This document shows positions 156-10,960 of a stretch of DNA of 14,223 nt, piece by piece. The notes under the pieces were generated by a model, which was given only the letters and a program-made list of their open reading frames with translations, searched no databases and was not told the DNA's origin. The stretch is from a virus, in the UHGV virus genome UHGV-0099328, one strand, 5' to 3'. Made by a program: the position numbers and the translations under genes. Each line of letters starts with the position of its first letter. The first letter of the stretch is position 1.

Positions 156-231
156 TGGTGCTGTTTAACGGACTTGAACCGCTACCCATTCGCTTACAAG
201 GCGACCGCTCTACCATTGGAGCTAAAACAGC
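156..231 (-). tRNA. tRNA-Thr (anticodon UGU), phage-encoded
   Basis: Reverse complement folds as a canonical cloverleaf: acceptor GCTGTTT/AAACAGC 7/7 bp, D-stem GCTC/GAGC, anticodon loop CTTGTAA with U33 and anticodon TGT, T-stem AGCGG/CCGTT, T-loop TTCAAGT, discriminator A and encoded CCA. Anticodon stem has one mismatch. Isotype is from hand folding only. Confidence 0.6.
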
Positions 232-236
232 ATGTT

Positions 237-311
237 TGGCGGGACAGCGTGGACTCGAACCACGATAAGAAGGTTAACAGCCTTCCGTAATCACCTTTAT
301 ACGACTGACCC
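237..311 (-). tRNA. tRNA-Asn (anticodon GUU), phage-encoded
   Basis: Reverse complement gives a cloverleaf: anticodon stem GAAGG/CCTTC 5/5 bp, loop CTGTTAA (anticodon GTT), T-stem CGTGG/CCACG with T-loop TTCGAGT, 3' CCA encoded. Anticodon loop and T-arm resemble E. coli tRNA-Asn as recalled. Acceptor stem has one T-T mismatch and the D-stem is only 3 bp, so function is uncertain. Confidence 0.55.
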
Positions 312-3695: not shown

Positions 3696-5132
3696 TCAGA
3701 ATCCTCCTTTCTTCTTGGACTGCGGTTCCTCGCGTTCACGTCGGCGCATTTCAGCAGACTGTTGGTCTGTGTCATAAATAGCGCCATTTGCCTGAATGCA
3801 ATACACCGTGCCGGTATTGCCATGACGATTGAGACGAAGGATTAGTTCAGTTTCACCAGGTGGAACACTGTCATCAAAAGCGCCTTCACGATGGATCCCG
3901 ACCCAATAATCGCAATCCTGTTCAATCTGCCCTGTATCTCGTGAGTCACTTGGTAATGGGCGTTTATTGGTTCTGCTTTCCAGTGCGCGGTTAAGCTGCG
4001 TCAGAAGCACAACAACGCAATCAAGCTCTTTGGCAAGGTTCTTCAGTCCTTTGGTGATCATGCCGTAAGCAAGGTCGTTGCGATCGGCCTTCTCAGCGGT
4101 CATTAGTGTCAGGTAATCGACCAGAATCATGCCAACACATCCTTTTTCTCGCTTGATTCGACGGCTTTCGCTGACGATTTGAGCCAGAGATAATCCCGGC
4201 GTGTCGTCGATGTAAAGCAGGTCTATTTCACTCAAGCGATTGGCTGTTTCTATCGCCCTGTTGAAGTCACCATCGTAATCACCCTGATAGCCGTCATCGG
4301 CGTCATTTGTCGCCGGAAGGTAAAAAATATTCGGGTTAACACCAGACTTCTGCCCTACCAGTTTTTCCAGTATCTGATCACCTGGCATTTCAAGGCTGAA
4401 CATCAATGCGGGCTTTTTCTCATGCACTGCGCAATTGATTGCCATCTGGCTGTATAGCGTCGTTTTCCCCATCTTAGGGCGAGCGCCAATGACAAACAGA
4501 GAGCCTTTCACCAGACCTTTCGGTGACAGCATCCTGTCCAGCGATGGGATCCCTGTGCTCATTCCCCGTTGTTCGCCTGATGGGTCAAATCGCTTCTCAA
4601 GGTCGCTAACCCAGTCTTCCATGACCTCACCAAATGAGCGAAGGCCGCGACGCGATCCGGTTTTTGCATGGTCTGTCAGTTGCGTGAAAATCGCCTGAAT
4701 AGCTTCGTACTTCTGCGTTGCAGTCATTCCGTTGCGGGAATAGAGCAATTCCGTCGCTTCAGTCATGCGGTTGATGGCGTAGCGTTCCATTGCGGTTTCA
4801 CGAACCTGCATTGCATAGGCAACGATGTTTGCTGCGCTTGGCGTGTTCTTTGCGATCTCAGAGATATAAGCAAAACCGCCAACAGACGCCGTTAACGATT
4901 TGCGCTCCAGTTCATCGAAAAGCGTCAGGCCATCTACTGGCTTTTGCTCCCGGTGCATTCTGGTTATTTCTTCGAAAAGGATTTTGTGTGGTCGGCTGTA
5001 AAATGAATCAGGCTTCAGCATCGCCAGAACTTTCTGGACGCGCTCACTGCTGTCATCATCCAGAAGCAATCCACCAATCACCGCCTGCTCTGCCTCGATG
5101 CTATGGGGCGGCGCATAAAAATTATCGGTCAT
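3696..5132 (-). CDS. Replicative DNA helicase, DnaB family (P22 gp12-like)
   Basis: Walker A GARPKMGKTT and DnaB-like architecture. ORF track starts at 5147 (GTG), but ATG at 5132 with upstream GAGGG is preferred, giving an 11-nt overlap with the initiator gene. Confidence 0.9.
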   Translation of the reverse strand: MTDNFYAPPHSIEAEQAVIGGLLLDDDSSERVQKVLAMLKPDSFYSRPHKILFEEITRMHREQKPVDGLTLFDELERKSLTASVGGFAYISEIAKNTPSAANIVAYAMQVRETAMERYAINRMTEATELLYSRNGMTATQKYEAIQAIFTQLTDHAKTGSRRGLRSFGEVMEDWVSDLEKRFDPSGEQRGMSTGIPSLDRMLSPKGLVKGSLFVIGARPKMGKTTLYSQMAINCAVHEKKPALMFSLEMPGDQILEKLVGQKSGVNPNIFYLPATNDADDGYQGDYDGDFNRAIETANRLSEIDLLYIDDTPGLSLAQIVSESRRIKREKGCVGMILVDYLTLMTAEKADRNDLAYGMITKGLKNLAKELDCVVVLLTQLNRALESRTNKRPLPSDSRDTGQIEQDCDYWVGIHREGAFDDSVPPGETELILRLNRHGNTGTVYCIQANGAIYDTDQQSAEMRRREREEPQSKKKGGF

Positions 5133-6012
5133 CGTGTTCACCCTCACGAACTTTCAGGTAGGTATTATCGTTAAGCAGGAAATCAAATCCCTTTTTGTGC
5201 CAGACGGTTCCGCGTTGATGGTTTGGGCGTTCTTCGAACATCCATCGGCAATTTTCGCCTACGTAGCTCAAATAATTTCTCCAGTCCTGCATCGTGAACC
5301 CATGCCCGTCAAGCTGGCGGGTTATCACTCCGGCTTTGCGCCAGAACGTTCGGATCTGGTTTTTACGCTTGTCATTCAGTGCGCGGATTCTTGGCGCTTC
5401 AGGAAGGATTTCGTGGTAAGCATCGACAACATCCTGACAGCTGACGGAAGGTTTTTTCTTGTCAGACTTTTTATCTGCTGTGGCACTCTCTAATACGTCA
5501 GTATTAGAGATATTATTTATATTATTGTTTATGGACAACCGTTGGACAACCGTTGGACAATCTCCGCTGAGAGCCACGCCATTACTGGTGTTTGCGTTGG
5601 ACAACCGTTGGACAACCGTTGGACAATTTTTTGCCTGAAAATCGTCATATTTAACGATTGTAAACAGGCTAAATTTCTTCCCCATCGAGCAAATATTAAG
5701 CATCCCTTTCGACTCAAAAGTCCGTAATAAGCTCCGAACTTTGTTGTCGGGGATGAATGTTTCTCTGACCAGCGACGGGCGTCCAGTTATCATCTGACCG
5801 CGATCAACAGTTATCGGACCGATATCCGTATTGACGACAGTAGATTCGTGATTAGCCTTGAGGATTAAGTGAAGCCAAAGATGTACTGCCTGAGAGTCCT
5901 TATAGAGCCTGCTGTCCATAAACTGGCGGTGTATAGAGACATACCCCATACTGGATGCCTCCTGATGTTGTACAGGGTTATGCCTGTAATCAGCTAACTT
6001 AACGACGCCCAT
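5122..6012 (-). CDS. Replication initiator protein (lambda O / P22 gp18 analogue) containing the origin
   Basis: 296-aa ORF directly upstream of the helicase, with AGGAG 7 nt before the ATG. Origin iterons lie inside the coding sequence (repeated peptide CPTVVQRLS), as in lambda O. Confidence 0.8.
   Translation of the reverse strand: MGVVKLADYRHNPVQHQEASSMGYVSIHRQFMDSRLYKDSQAVHLWLHLILKANHESTVVNTDIGPITVDRGQMITGRPSLVRETFIPDNKVRSLLRTFESKGMLNICSMGKKFSLFTIVKYDDFQAKNCPTVVQRLSNANTSNGVALSGDCPTVVQRLSINNNINNISNTDVLESATADKKSDKKKPSVSCQDVVDAYHEILPEAPRIRALNDKRKNQIRTFWRKAGVITRQLDGHGFTMQDWRNYLSYVGENCRWMFEERPNHQRGTVWHKKGFDFLLNDNTYLKVREGEHDDR
5529..5630. repeat. Replication origin iterons: two clusters of about three 11-bp direct repeats (GGACAACCGTT) flanked by an AT-rich tract
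   Basis: Seen directly: atGGACAACCGTTGGACAACCGTTGGACAAtc at 5531-5562 and GTTGGACAACCGTTGGACAACCGTTGGACAAtt at 5596-5628, separated by about 35 bp, with an AT-rich stretch at 5495-5530. Classic lambdoid ori architecture. Confidence 0.75.
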
Positions 6013-6808: not shown

Positions 6809-7606
<798 letters not shown>

Positions 7607-7692
7607 GTCCGCAGCAAGAGACTTTATACGCATCTAGATGTAGGAAATAAAAAAGAAGATCCCTACAATAAAAATAAGGAAATCATTAAGAT

Positions 7693-8598
7693 ATGTCGAT
7701 TAACAGCAATAGCGAATCCCTGCATCAAATGCAGCTTTTCCCTGTAGTAGAGGTTGTTTCTGATGATATTCCTATGGGCGTTCTCAATGATGGAACTCCT
7801 TACCTAACTCTCTACGGTCTCGCAAAGTTATGCGGCATTGATGACACGCCACTGAGGGTGTTCACATCAAACTGGAACACAGAGAAAAACAAACCCAGAG
7901 GTCAAAAAGTAGCTGCGTATTTAGCTGAGAAAGGGTTTCATAACGTCGAAAAGCTATACACTCGCGTTTTAAATAGCTCAAACGTGGAAACTCATGCTTA
8001 TCCTGACTATGTTTGCATGGCTATCCTCCGTTACTACGCTCTAGATGCCACCAATTTTGATAGGTCAGTCGCAATAGGTAATTTTGTTCGCTTGGCTGAG
8101 TACACGCTTAAGCGAATGATTTATGAAAAGTCAAATTACAACCCAAATGCTTCAATAGATATCTCATTCGAGAACTATAGAGCAAGGATTAAGCTAAACG
8201 ATCAGATACCGACAACTCATTTTGCAGTATTCAGAGAGATAGCTGACATTGCCATGAACCTGATCGGAGGAGGATTCCCAATGGATGACACCACATCTTT
8301 GGATGGAAGTGTTGGAATTCACTGGGGAAAGTATTGGACAGCTAATGGGCTATCTGAGAAATTCGGGGAAAGGGTGCAGTACCCACATTTATTCCCCGAA
8401 AATTACAGGCAGTCAGCTGCAAATAAGCATATAACAGCTTGGATTTATCCTATTGAGGCACTTGGCGTGTTCAGAAAATGGCTACACGATAATTACGCAA
8501 TGGAAAAACTGCCAAATTACCTTGGGAACAAAAAGATTAGTAACGCCTCCGAGCTATTAGAGTCGATAAAAAAACCAGCACTCCCAAATAAGCATTGA
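7693..8598 (+). CDS. Hypothetical protein in the rexA-rexB position; candidate prophage defence / superinfection-exclusion factor
   Basis: 301-aa ORF immediately downstream of and co-oriented with cI, followed by an intrinsic terminator and then oL/pL. It is unrelated to RexA or RexB and looks AT-rich compared with cI. The N-terminal segment PMGVLNDGTPYLTLYGLAKLCGIDDTP loosely resembles KilA-N/Bro-N DNA-binding domains (from memory). Confidence 0.7.
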   Translation: MSINSNSESLHQMQLFPVVEVVSDDIPMGVLNDGTPYLTLYGLAKLCGIDDTPLRVFTSNWNTEKNKPRGQKVAAYLAEKGFHNVEKLYTRVLNSSNVETHAYPDYVCMAILRYYALDATNFDRSVAIGNFVRLAEYTLKRMIYEKSNYNPNASIDISFENYRARIKLNDQIPTTHFAVFREIADIAMNLIGGGFPMDDTTSLDGSVGIHWGKYWTANGLSEKFGERVQYPHLFPENYRQSAANKHITAWIYPIEALGVFRKWLHDNYAMEKLPNYLGNKKISNASELLESIKKPALPNKH

Positions 8599-8610
8599 TC
8601 TCCACCACAA

Positions 8611-8636
8611 CCCGGCATCTGCGCCGGGTTTTCTTT
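8611..8636 (+). terminator. Intrinsic terminator ending the cI operon (lambda timm position)
   Basis: CCCGGC-atctgc-GCCGGG hairpin followed by TTTTCTTT, 13 nt after the stop of the 301-aa gene. Confidence 0.65.
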
Positions 8637-8786
8637 GCCTAACGCCCCCAAAAAACGCATAACCAATTGTATTTATTTCAAAATTAATAGATACAACTCA
8701 CTAAACATCGCAATTCAGATCTCTCGATCACCTTCCCAATCCACACAACCCTGCAAAAAATAAATCTATATAAAAAACATACAGAT

Positions 8787-8856
8787 AACCATCTGCGGTG
8801 ATAAATTATCTCTAGCGGTGTTGACATAAATACCACTGGCGGTGATACTAAGCACA
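8787..8856 (+). promoter_or_regulatory. oL3-oL2-oL1 operators and pL promoter
   Basis: 17-bp operator sites at 8787-8803, 8807-8823 and 8831-8847 (AACCATCTGCGGTGATA, TATCTCTAGCGGTGTTG, TACCACTGGCGGTGATA). pL -35 TTGACA (8821-8826) and -10 GATACT (8844-8849) with 17-bp spacing. Confidence 0.85.
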
Positions 8857-8888: not shown

Positions 8889-8919
8889 CGCTCTTAAAAA
8901 TTAAGCCCTGAAGAAGGGT
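8889..8919 (+). promoter_or_regulatory. nutL (boxA + boxB)
   Basis: boxA CGCTCTTAAAAATTAA followed by boxB GCCCTGAAGAAGGGT. The boxB stem closes with a G-U pair where nutR in this window (and lambda, as recalled) has G-C. Confidence 0.75.
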
Positions 8920-9117: not shown

Positions 9118-9450
9118 ATGGATGCACAAACACGCCGCCGCGAACGTCGCGCAGAGAAACAGGCTCAATGGAAAGCAGCAAATCCCCTGTTAGTTGGGGT
9201 AAGCGCAAAACCAGTTAACCGCCCTATTCTCTCGCTGAATCGAAAACCGAAATCACGAGTAGAAAGCGCACTGAATCCGATAGACCTTACGGTGCTGGCT
9301 GAATACCACGAACAGATTGAAAGCAACCTGCAGCGTATTGAGCGCAAGAATCAGCGCACATGGTACAGCAAGCCACGCAGTGAAATAGGTGTGACTTGCT
9401 CAGGCCGCCAGAAGCAACGCGGAAAATCAATTCCAGCTTATTACGATTGA
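9118..9450 (+). CDS. N: Antitermination protein N (lambda type, variant C-terminus)
   Basis: 110-aa ORF starting MDAQTRRRERRAEKQAQWKAANPLLVG (arginine-rich boxB-binding motif), preceded by AGGAGA. The last 25 or so residues diverge from lambda N as recalled. Confidence 0.9.
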   Translation: MDAQTRRRERRAEKQAQWKAANPLLVGVSAKPVNRPILSLNRKPKSRVESALNPIDLTVLAEYHEQIESNLQRIERKNQRTWYSKPRSEIGVTCSGRQKQRGKSIPAYYD

Positions 9451-9650: not shown

Positions 9651-10121
9651 ATGACAAAATCATGGAGCGTACCTTTTCCTGAATCAGAAACTGAACATGA
9701 TGGAATGCCTGTTTTCTGGAGATTCCAGGCGACAGTTGAAGAAGATGGGATAAAAATATTCGCACTTCAATATATAGCTTTTCATCAGACAGAGCATTAT
9801 GCATGGTTGGTTCCTGCGCATTGGATTGTTAATTTTAAACCAGCACCAAATCAGTGGTTACAGGAATGGAAACAAAGGAGAAATAGATATGCAATTAAGA
9901 AAGTAGCAAAAAATGCAGAAAGATCTTTTGCATTCCCAACGAAGAAACTTGCTATTGAAAGTTTATTGCGCCGGAAGAAATACCATTTAATGAGAATAAA
10001 ACAAGATTTGGCTGTTGTATCAACTCTTGTTGATGGGATGAAAAATATTGATACATCAACACCAGATATTGAATATAACTTTGGACACAACCAAGAAACA
10101 GAAAACTGGGTGTTTTATTAG
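9651..10121 (+). CDS. Hypothetical protein in the ral/sieB position between N and cIII
   Basis: 156-aa ORF with the same TTGAGGTGAG ribosome-binding motif as the upstream small ORF. AT-rich; no similarity to lambda Ral, SieB or Ea10 as recalled. Confidence 0.65.
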   Translation: MTKSWSVPFPESETEHDGMPVFWRFQATVEEDGIKIFALQYIAFHQTEHYAWLVPAHWIVNFKPAPNQWLQEWKQRRNRYAIKKVAKNAERSFAFPTKKLAIESLLRRKKYHLMRIKQDLAVVSTLVDGMKNIDTSTPDIEYNFGHNQETENWVFY

Positions 10122-10476: not shown

Positions 10477-10588
10477 ATTCACTATCGCCACTTTTATTGG
10501 CGATGAAAAGATGTTTCGTGAAGCCGTCGACGCTTATAAAAAATGGATATTAATACTGAAACTGAGATCAAGCAAAAGCATTCACTAA
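10445..10588 (+). CDS. kil: Kil (host-killing FtsZ inhibitor)
   Basis: 47-aa product [47 protein letters not shown], overlapping the cIII 3' end in another frame as in lambda. Confidence 0.75.
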
Positions 10589-10663
10589 CCCCCTTTCCTG
10601 TTTTCCTAATCAGCCTGGCATTTCGCGGGCGATATTTTCACAGCCATTTTCAGGAGTTCAGCC

Positions 10664-10960
10664 ATGAACGCTTATTACATTCAGGATCGTCTTGAGGCTC
10701 AGAGCTGGGCGCGTCACTACCAGCAGATCGCCCATGAAGAGAAAGAGGCAGAACTGGCAGACGACATGGAAAAAGGCCTGCCCCAGCACCTGTTTGAATC
10801 GCTATGCATCGATCATTTGCAACGCCACGGGGCCAGCAAAAAAGCCATTACCCGTGCGTTTGATGACGATGTTGAGTTTCAGGAGCGCATGGCAGAACAC
10901 ATCCGGTACATGGTTGAAACCATTGCTCACCACCAGGTTGATATTGATTCAGAGGTATAA
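10664..10960 (+). CDS. gam: Gam (RecBCD inhibitor), short GamS form
   Basis: 98-aa [26 protein letters not shown]... matching lambda GamS as recalled. Confidence 0.9.

What the first reader, a model, noticed from the sequence alone, without database searches (positions are those of the whole stretch)
7693..8598. Unknown 301-aa gene replaces rexA-rexB directly downstream of cI: candidate lysogen-expressed anti-phage defence
In lambda the segment between cI and the timm terminator holds rexA-rexB, an abortive-infection/exclusion system co-transcribed with cI from pRM. Here that slot holds a single unrelated 301-aa ORF on the cI strand, followed by an intrinsic terminator and then oL/pL. Its composition looks AT-rich, as is usual for acquired accessory cargo. 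The N-terminal third loosely resembles KilA-N/Bro-N DNA-binding folds. A roughly 300-aa KilA-N protein immediately downstream of a prophage repressor is the arrangement reported for BstA-family abortive-infection proteins. That family assignment is a hypothesis from context and weak motif memory, not an established match.
Basis: partly seen in the sequence, partly recalled or inferred. Interest (0 to 1): 0.8.

Follow-up and report, generated by a model that had tools for sequence, protein, structure and literature searches.

The report
Known BstA phage-defence gene beside cI

Summary
The ORF at 7693-8598 (+) is real. It lies 86 bp after a lambda-type cI and is followed by the Timm terminator, oL/pL, nutL and N. 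A 1002-bp cassette (7607-8608) replaces lambda rexA-rexB, running from the cI stop codon up to the Timm hairpin.

The protein is a full-length BstA: PADLOC BstA E 1.3e-105, PHROG 6287 E 6e-133, and 42.5% identity to BstA-BTP1 over 99% of its length. It is identical to hypothetical protein CL70704 of phage CL707.

The primers and coordinates Owen et al. 2021 used for bstA-Ec (E. coli NCTC10963) fit the window exactly: 7607-8658, 1052 bp, same register. That fragment gave phage resistance and cognate self-immunity in their experiments. The gene is therefore already known.

The KilA-N resemblance is only weakly supported, by fold and not by Pfam.

One addition goes beyond the paper. In 36 of 66 distinct bstA loci an exact direct repeat of 6 nt or more, spaced 56-57 bp, is present (about 4 expected); in about 31 of them it brackets the start codon. 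The repeated word differs between clades, mirroring the essential CCCGCC repeats of aba-BTP1. In the window the copies are GATCCCTACA (7658-7667) and AATCCCTGCA (7715-7724). This predicts where the unmapped aba-Ec element lies.

The parts
6893..7606 (+). cI repressor, lambda immunity type (237 aa)
   Evidence: 98.2% DNA identity to lambda cI and 3 amino-acid differences. Pfam HTH_3 plus Peptidase_S24.
6858..6886 (+). pRM, the presumed lysogenic promoter for cI-bstA. Position transferred from the CL707 annotation.
   Evidence: CL707 record features, mapped with offset 6185. The oR1-3 operators lie at 6819-6882, each 1 mismatch from lambda. Use by bstA is inferred, not shown.
7607..8608 (+). Cassette that replaces lambda rexA-rexB
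   Evidence: Lambda homology stops at 7606 and resumes at 8609.
7607..8658 (+). Stretch equivalent to the bstA-Ec fragment tested by Owen et al. 2021 (NCTC10963 1520919-1521970, 1052 bp)
   Evidence: Both primer 3' parts match exactly at 7607-7630 and 8637-8658. Length is the same, 1052 bp. The paper's Table S1 coordinates map in register to 7696-8592.
7658..7724 (+). Predicted anti-BstA (aba-Ec) self-immunity DNA element
   Evidence: Inferred by analogy with the 63-bp aba-BTP1 and from the family-wide 56-57 bp repeat geometry. Function not tested.
7658..7667 (+). aba repeat copy 1, GATCCCTACA (non-coding, 35 nt before the ATG)
   Evidence: The pattern RATCCCTRCA occurs only at the two copies in the window (0.10 expected).
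7715..7724 (+). aba repeat copy 2, AATCCCTGCA (codons 8-11 of bstA), 57 bp after copy 1
   Evidence: It lies in the part of the protein predicted to be disordered (residues 1-12).
7676..7682 (+). Shine-Dalgarno-like AAGGAAA
   Evidence: Read from the sequence. AAGGA(A/T)ATCA is conserved upstream of the start in many bstA loci.
7693..8598 (+). bstA coding sequence (301 aa plus stop)
   Evidence: All 28 invariant family residues are present.
7729..8142 (+). N-terminal domain (about residues 13-150): beta strands plus a helix-turn-helix (helices 40-47 and 51-59)
8161..8565 (+). C-terminal BstA domain (about residues 157-291)
8609..8636 (+). Timm intrinsic terminator
   Evidence: -15 kcal/mol, z -3.8. 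The equivalent site is annotated Timm in CL707. Lambda homology starts here.
8787..8849 (.). oL3, oL2, oL1 and pL
   Evidence: Operator matches and the promoter scan.
8889..8919 (+). nutL boxA and boxB
9118..9450 (+). N antiterminator

Best explanation
The gene is bstA, the E. coli allele family called BstA-Ec. It is a prophage-encoded abortive-infection defence gene and sits in the accessory slot between cI and the Timm terminator.

Most likely course of events:
1. In the lysogen bstA is read together with cI from pRM and the transcript stops at Timm. This is inferred.
2. When an unrelated phage infects, the two-domain BstA protein goes to the replicating phage DNA and blocks its replication. 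The cell dies without releasing progeny. This was shown for BstA-BTP1. Resistance was shown for BstA-Ec.
3. When the resident prophage is itself induced, a short DNA element that overlaps the bstA start codon (aba) switches off its cognate BstA. This was shown for the whole bstA-Ec fragment. The element has not been mapped within it.

I predict that aba-Ec is window 7658-7724, bounded by the direct repeats GATCCCTACA and AATCCCTGCA, which lie 57 bp apart. I suggest that BstA recognises these paired words. This last step is inference.
For: Family membership:
- PADLOC BstA E 1.3e-105 and PHROG 6287 E 6e-133.
- 42.5% identity to BstA-BTP1 over 99% of length.
- Homologues carry PF26567, and all invariant residues are present.

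Link to the tested locus:
- Both primers match exactly, the length is the same 1052 bp, and the register is the same.
- The paper reports defence by BstA-Ec and cognate immunity of P22 bstA-Ec.

Context:
- Same strand as cI, 86-bp gap, no terminator or promoter in between, strong Timm hairpin directly after.
- In 8 of 9 representatives of diverse clusters an HTH/S24 repressor-type gene lies directly upstream on the same strand.

aba prediction:
- aba-BTP1 spans -29 to +34 and has essential terminal CCCGCC repeats 56 bp apart.
- 36 of 66 unique loci have an exact repeat of at least 6 nt at spacing 56-57. Shuffles gave 3.6 (maximum 9). Other spacings averaged 4.8.
- The best 10-nt match was 7.23 of 10 within a locus, 5.48 at other spacings and 5.76 between loci.
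- 7 of 10 protein clusters at 60% identity show the repeat, against 0.96 at control spacings.
- Klebsiella and Pseudomonas phages fit the same geometry.
- The window pair was found independently.
Against: - Nothing here measures expression or phenotype for this window.
- Nucleotide-level identity to NCTC10963 could not be checked inside the fragment, because that record is not in the collections.
- Owen et al. found BstA-Ec slightly less active than BstA-BTP1 against coliphages.
- The window repeat is short: 6 nt exact, 8 of 10 matching.
- In the window's own protein cluster only 2 of 15 loci have 6 exact bases. Most share only GATC plus a few more.
- A sliding-window test did not single out the predicted recognition helix as co-varying with the repeat word, so direct read-out by the helix-turn-helix is unproven.
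- The mechanism of replication arrest is unknown in the literature. The C-terminal domain gave no informative fold match.
Confidence: 0.92

Rival explanations
1. The protein is a Bro-N/KilA-N type antirepressor or regulator of the prophage switch, not a defence protein.
For: The weak BFVD hits are enriched in proteins named Bro-N, KilA-N, antirepressor or 'repressor domain'. A helix-turn-helix is predicted, and some homologues give weak HTH Pfam hits. The gene sits next to cI.
Against: The full-length, very strong matches are to BstA models. There is no Pfam KilA-N, Bro-N or ANT hit in 59 family members. The equivalent fragment gave phage resistance experimentally.
Confidence: 0.03
2. The gene is a BstA homologue that is silent or decaying in this prophage and contributes nothing.
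For: Nearby there is a +1 frameshift in the long form of gam. The prophage is a mosaic that has no full-length match among complete E. coli genomes.
Against: The ORF is intact and has every invariant residue. Exactly this protein is recorded on 645 contigs. The gene is at least 99% identical in 10 complete genomes. The cI, operators, Timm and pL are all intact.
Confidence: 0.04
3. The gene is BstA, but the self-immunity element aba-Ec lies elsewhere in the 1052-bp fragment, and the 57-bp repeat at the start codon is not its functional boundary.
For: aba-Ec was never mapped. The window repeat is short. Copy 2 overlaps codons, so part of its conservation could reflect the protein. The terminator scan also flags a weak hairpin at 7720-7734.
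Against: The position and spacing mirror the mapped aba-BTP1. The geometry recurs across 7 of 10 clades with different words. Copy 1 is non-coding.
Confidence: 0.3

Closest known systems
BstA-Ec of E. coli NCTC10963 (Owen et al. 2021, Cell Host Microbe, PMC8585504)
   Same: Both cloning primers match the window exactly. The fragment length is the same (1052 bp) and so is the reading register. Global identity to BstA-BTP1 is 42.1% here, against 41.7% reported for BstA-Ec. The position after the prophage repressor is the same.
   Different: Base-by-base identity inside the fragment could not be verified. The rest of the prophage may differ.
Hypothetical protein CL70704 (ABO40695.1) of lambda-immunity phage CL707 (GenBank EF120459)
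   Same: The protein is 100% identical. The immunity region is 98.4% identical over 2.8 kb, with the same cI, Timm, oL/pL and nutL layout.
   Different: CL707 diverges from the window after N and carries an IS10 downstream. The deposited record gives the protein no function.
BstA-BTP1 with its aba element (Salmonella phage BTP1)
   Same: Two-domain architecture, position after cI, own terminator, and a direct repeat bracketing the start codon at 56-57 bp.
   Different: Protein identity is only about 42%. The repeat word is CCCGCC(A) rather than (G/A)ATCCCT(A/G)CA. The aba elements are reported not to cross-protect.
Lambda RexA-RexB
   Same: Same genomic slot, between cI and Timm, on the cI strand. 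Both are lysogen-expressed abortive-infection systems.
   Different: No sequence homology. One protein instead of two. According to the paper the mechanisms are not comparable: replication block versus membrane depolarisation.

Membership tests
BstA abortive-infection family | Full-length sequence homology to BstA-BTP1, covering both domains | tested here: met
   PADLOC BstA E 1.3e-105 over positions 4-281 of 292. PHROG 6287 E 6e-133 over 3-304 of 304. 42.5% identity over 99% of length.
BstA abortive-infection family | C-terminal BstA domain (PF26567) | tested here: met
   The representative of the window protein's own 90% cluster, and nearly all homologues, carry PF26567.1. RefSeq name. The local Pfam copy returned no hit.
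BstA abortive-infection family | N-terminal KilA-N(-like) DNA-binding domain | tested here: inconclusive
BstA abortive-infection family | Located directly downstream of the prophage repressor on the same strand, with its own terminator | tested here: met
   cI ends at 7606, bstA starts at 7693, Timm lies at 8609-8630. The same arrangement holds in 8 of 9 diverse relatives.
BstA abortive-infection family | [quoted passage not shown] | tested here: met
   Sequence feature only: 10-nt copies at 7658 and 7715, 57 bp apart. The geometry is family-wide. Function was not tested.
BstA abortive-infection family | Blocks replication of heterologous phages by abortive infection | not testable with these tools
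   Phage resistance is reported for the equivalent NCTC10963 fragment; abortive infection and the replication block were shown for BstA-BTP1.
Lambda RexA/RexB exclusion system | Homology to rexA and rexB | tested here: not met
   No lambda homology in 7607-8608. PADLOC returned only BstA and one weak HTH model.
KilA-N (PF04383) / Bro-N (PF02498) domain families | Sequence match to the Pfam model | tested here: not met
   No hit at E up to 10 for the window protein, and none at E up to 1 in 59 family members.

The most novel reading that the evidence does not exclude
Every bstA locus carries its self-immunity element as a pair of clade-specific words held 56-57 bp apart across the start codon. 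In this window the words are GATCCCTACA and AATCCCTGCA, giving aba-Ec at 7658-7724. These paired words would be the address that each BstA protein reads to recognise its own prophage. This would explain why aba elements are cognate. Owen et al. 2021 mapped only aba-BTP1 and did not report the shared geometry, and two full-text searches found no later work on aba.
Probability: 0.55. Interest if true: 0.5.

Novelty: already known. Interest (0 to 1): 0.25.

Why it matters
As a gene, it adds nothing new. BstA is in PADLOC, PHROGs, Pfam and RefSeq naming, and this allele family was tested experimentally in 2021. The result matters mainly as a check that the first-stage reader can identify a defence gene from context alone.

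The small forward step is the comparative result on aba. A conserved 56-57 bp spacing with clade-specific repeat words gives a concrete, cheaply testable model for two things the original paper left open: where aba-Ec and other aba elements lie, and what makes them cognate.

Tried and rejected
- Pfam and NCBIfam scans of the protein gave nothing. The relevant Pfam family appears only in the precomputed annotations.
- A profile search of PDB sequences found no solved relative.
- The afdb50 library was unavailable.
- I looked for a specificity code linking the predicted recognition helix (residues 48-62) to the repeat word.
  - Some cases looked suggestive. DEAPLR[ML] goes with GATCG words in two different clusters. 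L077 shares both helix and word with another cluster.
  - However, L012, L013 and L023 break the pattern.
  - A sliding-window correlation showed no peak at the helix: rho about 0.17, against peaks near 0.4 at residues 16-30 and 139-156.
  - I therefore make no claim about a specificity code.
- The hairpin at 7720-7734, flagged as terminator-like, is weak (-7.2 kcal/mol, z -2.2). By eye the stem is weakened or lost in the close relatives I compared (L008, L009). I treat it as incidental.
- Dam GATC sites sit in both repeat copies in many relatives. They are absent from copy 2 of the window and from aba-BTP1, so this is not a general feature.
- The Degnan 2007 paper on CL707 is not in the library.

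Full report
OBSERVATION

The window is the early region of a lambdoid prophage, and its + strand is lambda's leftward strand. The ORF at 7693-8598 (+) encodes 301 aa. It starts at the first possible start codon after an in-frame stop.

cI lies upstream at 6893-7606 (+). Its DNA is 98.2% identical to lambda cI and the protein has three substitutions. It carries HTH_3 and Peptidase_S24.

Lambda homology ends at the cI stop codon (7606). It resumes at 8609, which corresponds to lambda 35826 at the end of rexB. A 1002-bp cassette therefore stands where lambda has about 1400 bp of rexA-rexB.

Immediately after the ORF comes a strong hairpin with a T-run at 8609-8630 (-15 kcal/mol, z -3.8). The equivalent site is annotated as Timm in phage CL707. 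Further downstream are:
- oL3 (8787-8803), oL2 (8807-8823) and oL1 (8831-8847);
- pL (8821-8849);
- nutL (8889-8919);
- N (9118-9450).

The gene is 41.9% GC, against 46.8% for the window.

WHAT IT IS

The protein matches the PADLOC BstA model end to end (E 1.3e-105). It also matches PHROG 6287, 'BstA abortive infection system, replication inhibitor' (E 6e-133). By tblastn it is 42.5% identical to BstA of Salmonella phage BTP1 over 99% of its length, and 42.1% in a global alignment.

It is 100% identical to hypothetical protein CL70704 of the lambda-immunity phage CL707. The CL707 immunity region is 98.4% identical to the window over 2.8 kb. RefSeq names the identical protein WP_000026554.1 'BstA C-terminal domain-containing protein'. 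The exact sequence is recorded on 645 contigs. Alleles at 90% nucleotide identity or more occur in 33 of 5426 complete E. coli genomes.

Owen et al. 2021 (PMC8585504) defined the BstA family and tested a homologue from E. coli NCTC10963, which they called BstA-Ec. Several details tie that fragment to the window:
- The 3' parts of their cloning primers are GTCCGCAGCAAGAGACTTTATACG and the reverse complement of GCCTAACGCCCCCAAAAAACGC. They match window 7607-7630 and 8637-8658 exactly.
- The fragment they moved into P22 is NCTC10963 1520919-1521970, which is 1052 bp. That equals 7607-8658.
- Their Table S1 match coordinates map in register to codons 2-300 of the window ORF.

In their hands that fragment conferred resistance to Salmonella phages, and cognate self-immunity when carried by P22. 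The gene is therefore already known and characterised. I could not check the interior of the fragment base by base, because that record is not in the collections.

STRUCTURE AND THE KILA-N QUESTION

An AlphaFold model built from 59 homologues has mean pLDDT 86.4 and a low pTM of 0.48, as expected for two loosely packed domains. Residues 1-12 are disordered. The N-terminal domain has beta strands followed by a helix-turn-helix (helices 40-47 and 51-59).

Foldseek against viral models gives weak hits enriched in Bro-N, KilA-N and antirepressor proteins. The 'KilA-N-like' label is thus supported only at the level of a loose fold resemblance.

HOW IT MOST LIKELY WORKS

Expression (inferred). bstA is read with cI from pRM, and from pRE during establishment, and the transcript ends at Timm. 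The evidence is the shared strand, an 86-bp gap with no promoter-like or terminator-like site, and the terminator directly after the gene. Owen et al. report high expression of bstA-BTP1 in lysogeny and assume a shared promoter.

Defence (shown elsewhere, not here). BstA relocates to infecting phage DNA, stops its replication and aborts the infection.

Self-immunity (shown elsewhere). Each bstA locus carries a cognate DNA element, aba, that suppresses its own BstA when present on replicating DNA. Only aba-BTP1 was mapped. It is 63 bp long, covering 29 bp upstream plus the first 34 bp of the gene. Its terminal CCCGCC direct repeats are essential.

THE ABA ELEMENT IN THE WINDOW AND ACROSS THE FAMILY

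I collected 80 bstA loci from viral contigs and added the window, CL707 and BTP1. After removing duplicates there were 66 distinct start-codon regions.

An exact direct repeat of at least 6 nt at a spacing of 56 or 57 bp occurs in 36 of the 66. Shuffled sequences gave 3.6 (maximum 9). Other spacing pairs averaged 4.8 (maximum 17).

In about 31 of the 36, the first copy lies 17-41 nt before the ATG and the second lies 15-39 nt after it. The word differs between clades:
- ATCCCT
- GATCCC
- GATCGC
- CCCTAC
- CCCGCCA
- CCACCA
- TCACCA
- GCACCA
- TGGGCA
- TGGTCA
- TGAACA
- AGAACAGCT
- GAGCAGC
- GCAGCACCCC

Further support:
- The best 10-nt match averages 7.23 of 10 within a locus. It is 5.48 at other spacings and 5.76 between loci.
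- After grouping proteins at 60% identity, 7 of 10 clusters show the feature, against 0.96 at control spacings.
- Klebsiella phage RCIP0114 and Pseudomonas phage D14H also fit.

In the window the copies are GATCCCTACA (7658-7667) and AATCCCTGCA (7715-7724). They are 57 bp apart and match at 8 of 10 positions. These are the only two matches to RATCCCTRCA in 14 kb, where 0.10 are expected. The repeat finder extends the pair to 14 nt at 79% identity.

Copy 1 is non-coding. Copy 2 lies in codons 8-11, within the disordered N-terminal tail. I therefore predict that aba-Ec is about 7658-7724.

The paper reports neither this family-wide geometry nor the position of aba-Ec. I found no later work on aba in the library.

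Caveats: the window repeat is short. Within the window's own protein cluster most loci share only GATC plus a few more bases.

WHAT REMAINS UNRESOLVED

BstA proteins are mosaic. Residues 1-62, together with aba, recombine independently of the C-terminal domain. This is compatible with an N-terminal specificity module, but equally with simple physical linkage.

A search for co-variation between the predicted recognition helix and the repeat word was inconclusive. How BstA stops replication is unknown, and my fold searches add nothing to that question.

VERDICT

The gene is already known, so interest is low. The one new element is an in-silico model of the aba architecture, with a specific and testable prediction for this locus.

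Noticed in passing
window 7658-7724; loci L003-L087 around the bstA start codon: Family-wide direct repeat at a fixed 56-57 bp spacing that brackets the bstA start codon. The word is clade-specific. The ATG floats inside the frame: copy 1 lies at -17 to -41.
   Followed up: yes
L015, L018, L027, L077, L066 compared with the window (protein residues 1-62 against 151-301): BstA proteins are mosaics. L015 has a window-type C-terminal domain (85% identity) but an L027-type N-terminus (65% identity over residues 1-20, 87% over 48-62). L077 has a BTP1-type C-domain (83%) but an L066-type segment at 48-62 (87%, against 33% to BTP1).
   Followed up: partly
window 9651-10121 (+): A 156-aa ORF with the lowest GC in the window (35.7%), just after N in the pL operon. 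It matches PHROG 1636 (unknown function, E 3e-112) and has no PADLOC hit. It is a second possible accessory cargo gene. CL707 carries a different gene at this position.
   Followed up: partly
window about 10645 (gam, 10543-10960): Relative to lambda there is a 1-base insertion upstream of the internal Met. It frameshifts the long 138-aa form of Gam and leaves the 98-aa short ORF (10664-10960) intact.
   Followed up: yes
window 156-311 (-): tRNA-Thr (TGT) and tRNA-Asn (GTT) genes lie directly downstream of the Q antiterminator gene (375-893, - strand).
   Followed up: no
window 3696-6012 (-): The replication module is a DnaB-like helicase (483 aa) plus an O-like/DnaD-like initiator, not lambda O/P. 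The phage has lambda immunity but a non-lambda replication module, and replication is the process BstA targets.
   Followed up: no
window 7639-7667 and 7720-7734: Repeat copy 1 is the 3' arm of a small inverted repeat (TGTAGG, 17 nt, CCTACA). Copy 2 overlaps a weak hairpin, CTGCAT-CAA-ATGCAG (-7.2 kcal/mol). In several other loci copy 1 also sits inside a palindrome, for example GTGCCGATCCCGGCAC in L032.
   Followed up: partly
window 7658-7661; relatives L008-L035: In the two enterobacterial clusters closest to the window both repeat copies usually contain a Dam site (GATC), 57 bp apart. In the window only copy 1 does (copy 2 is AATC), and aba-BTP1 has none.
   Followed up: no
E. coli genomes H63-H83: 23 complete genomes carry a bstA allele of about 93.5% identity. 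Its similarity to the window begins only at nucleotide 54 or 84 of the gene. The aba-bearing 5' end has therefore been exchanged while the gene body is conserved.
   Followed up: no
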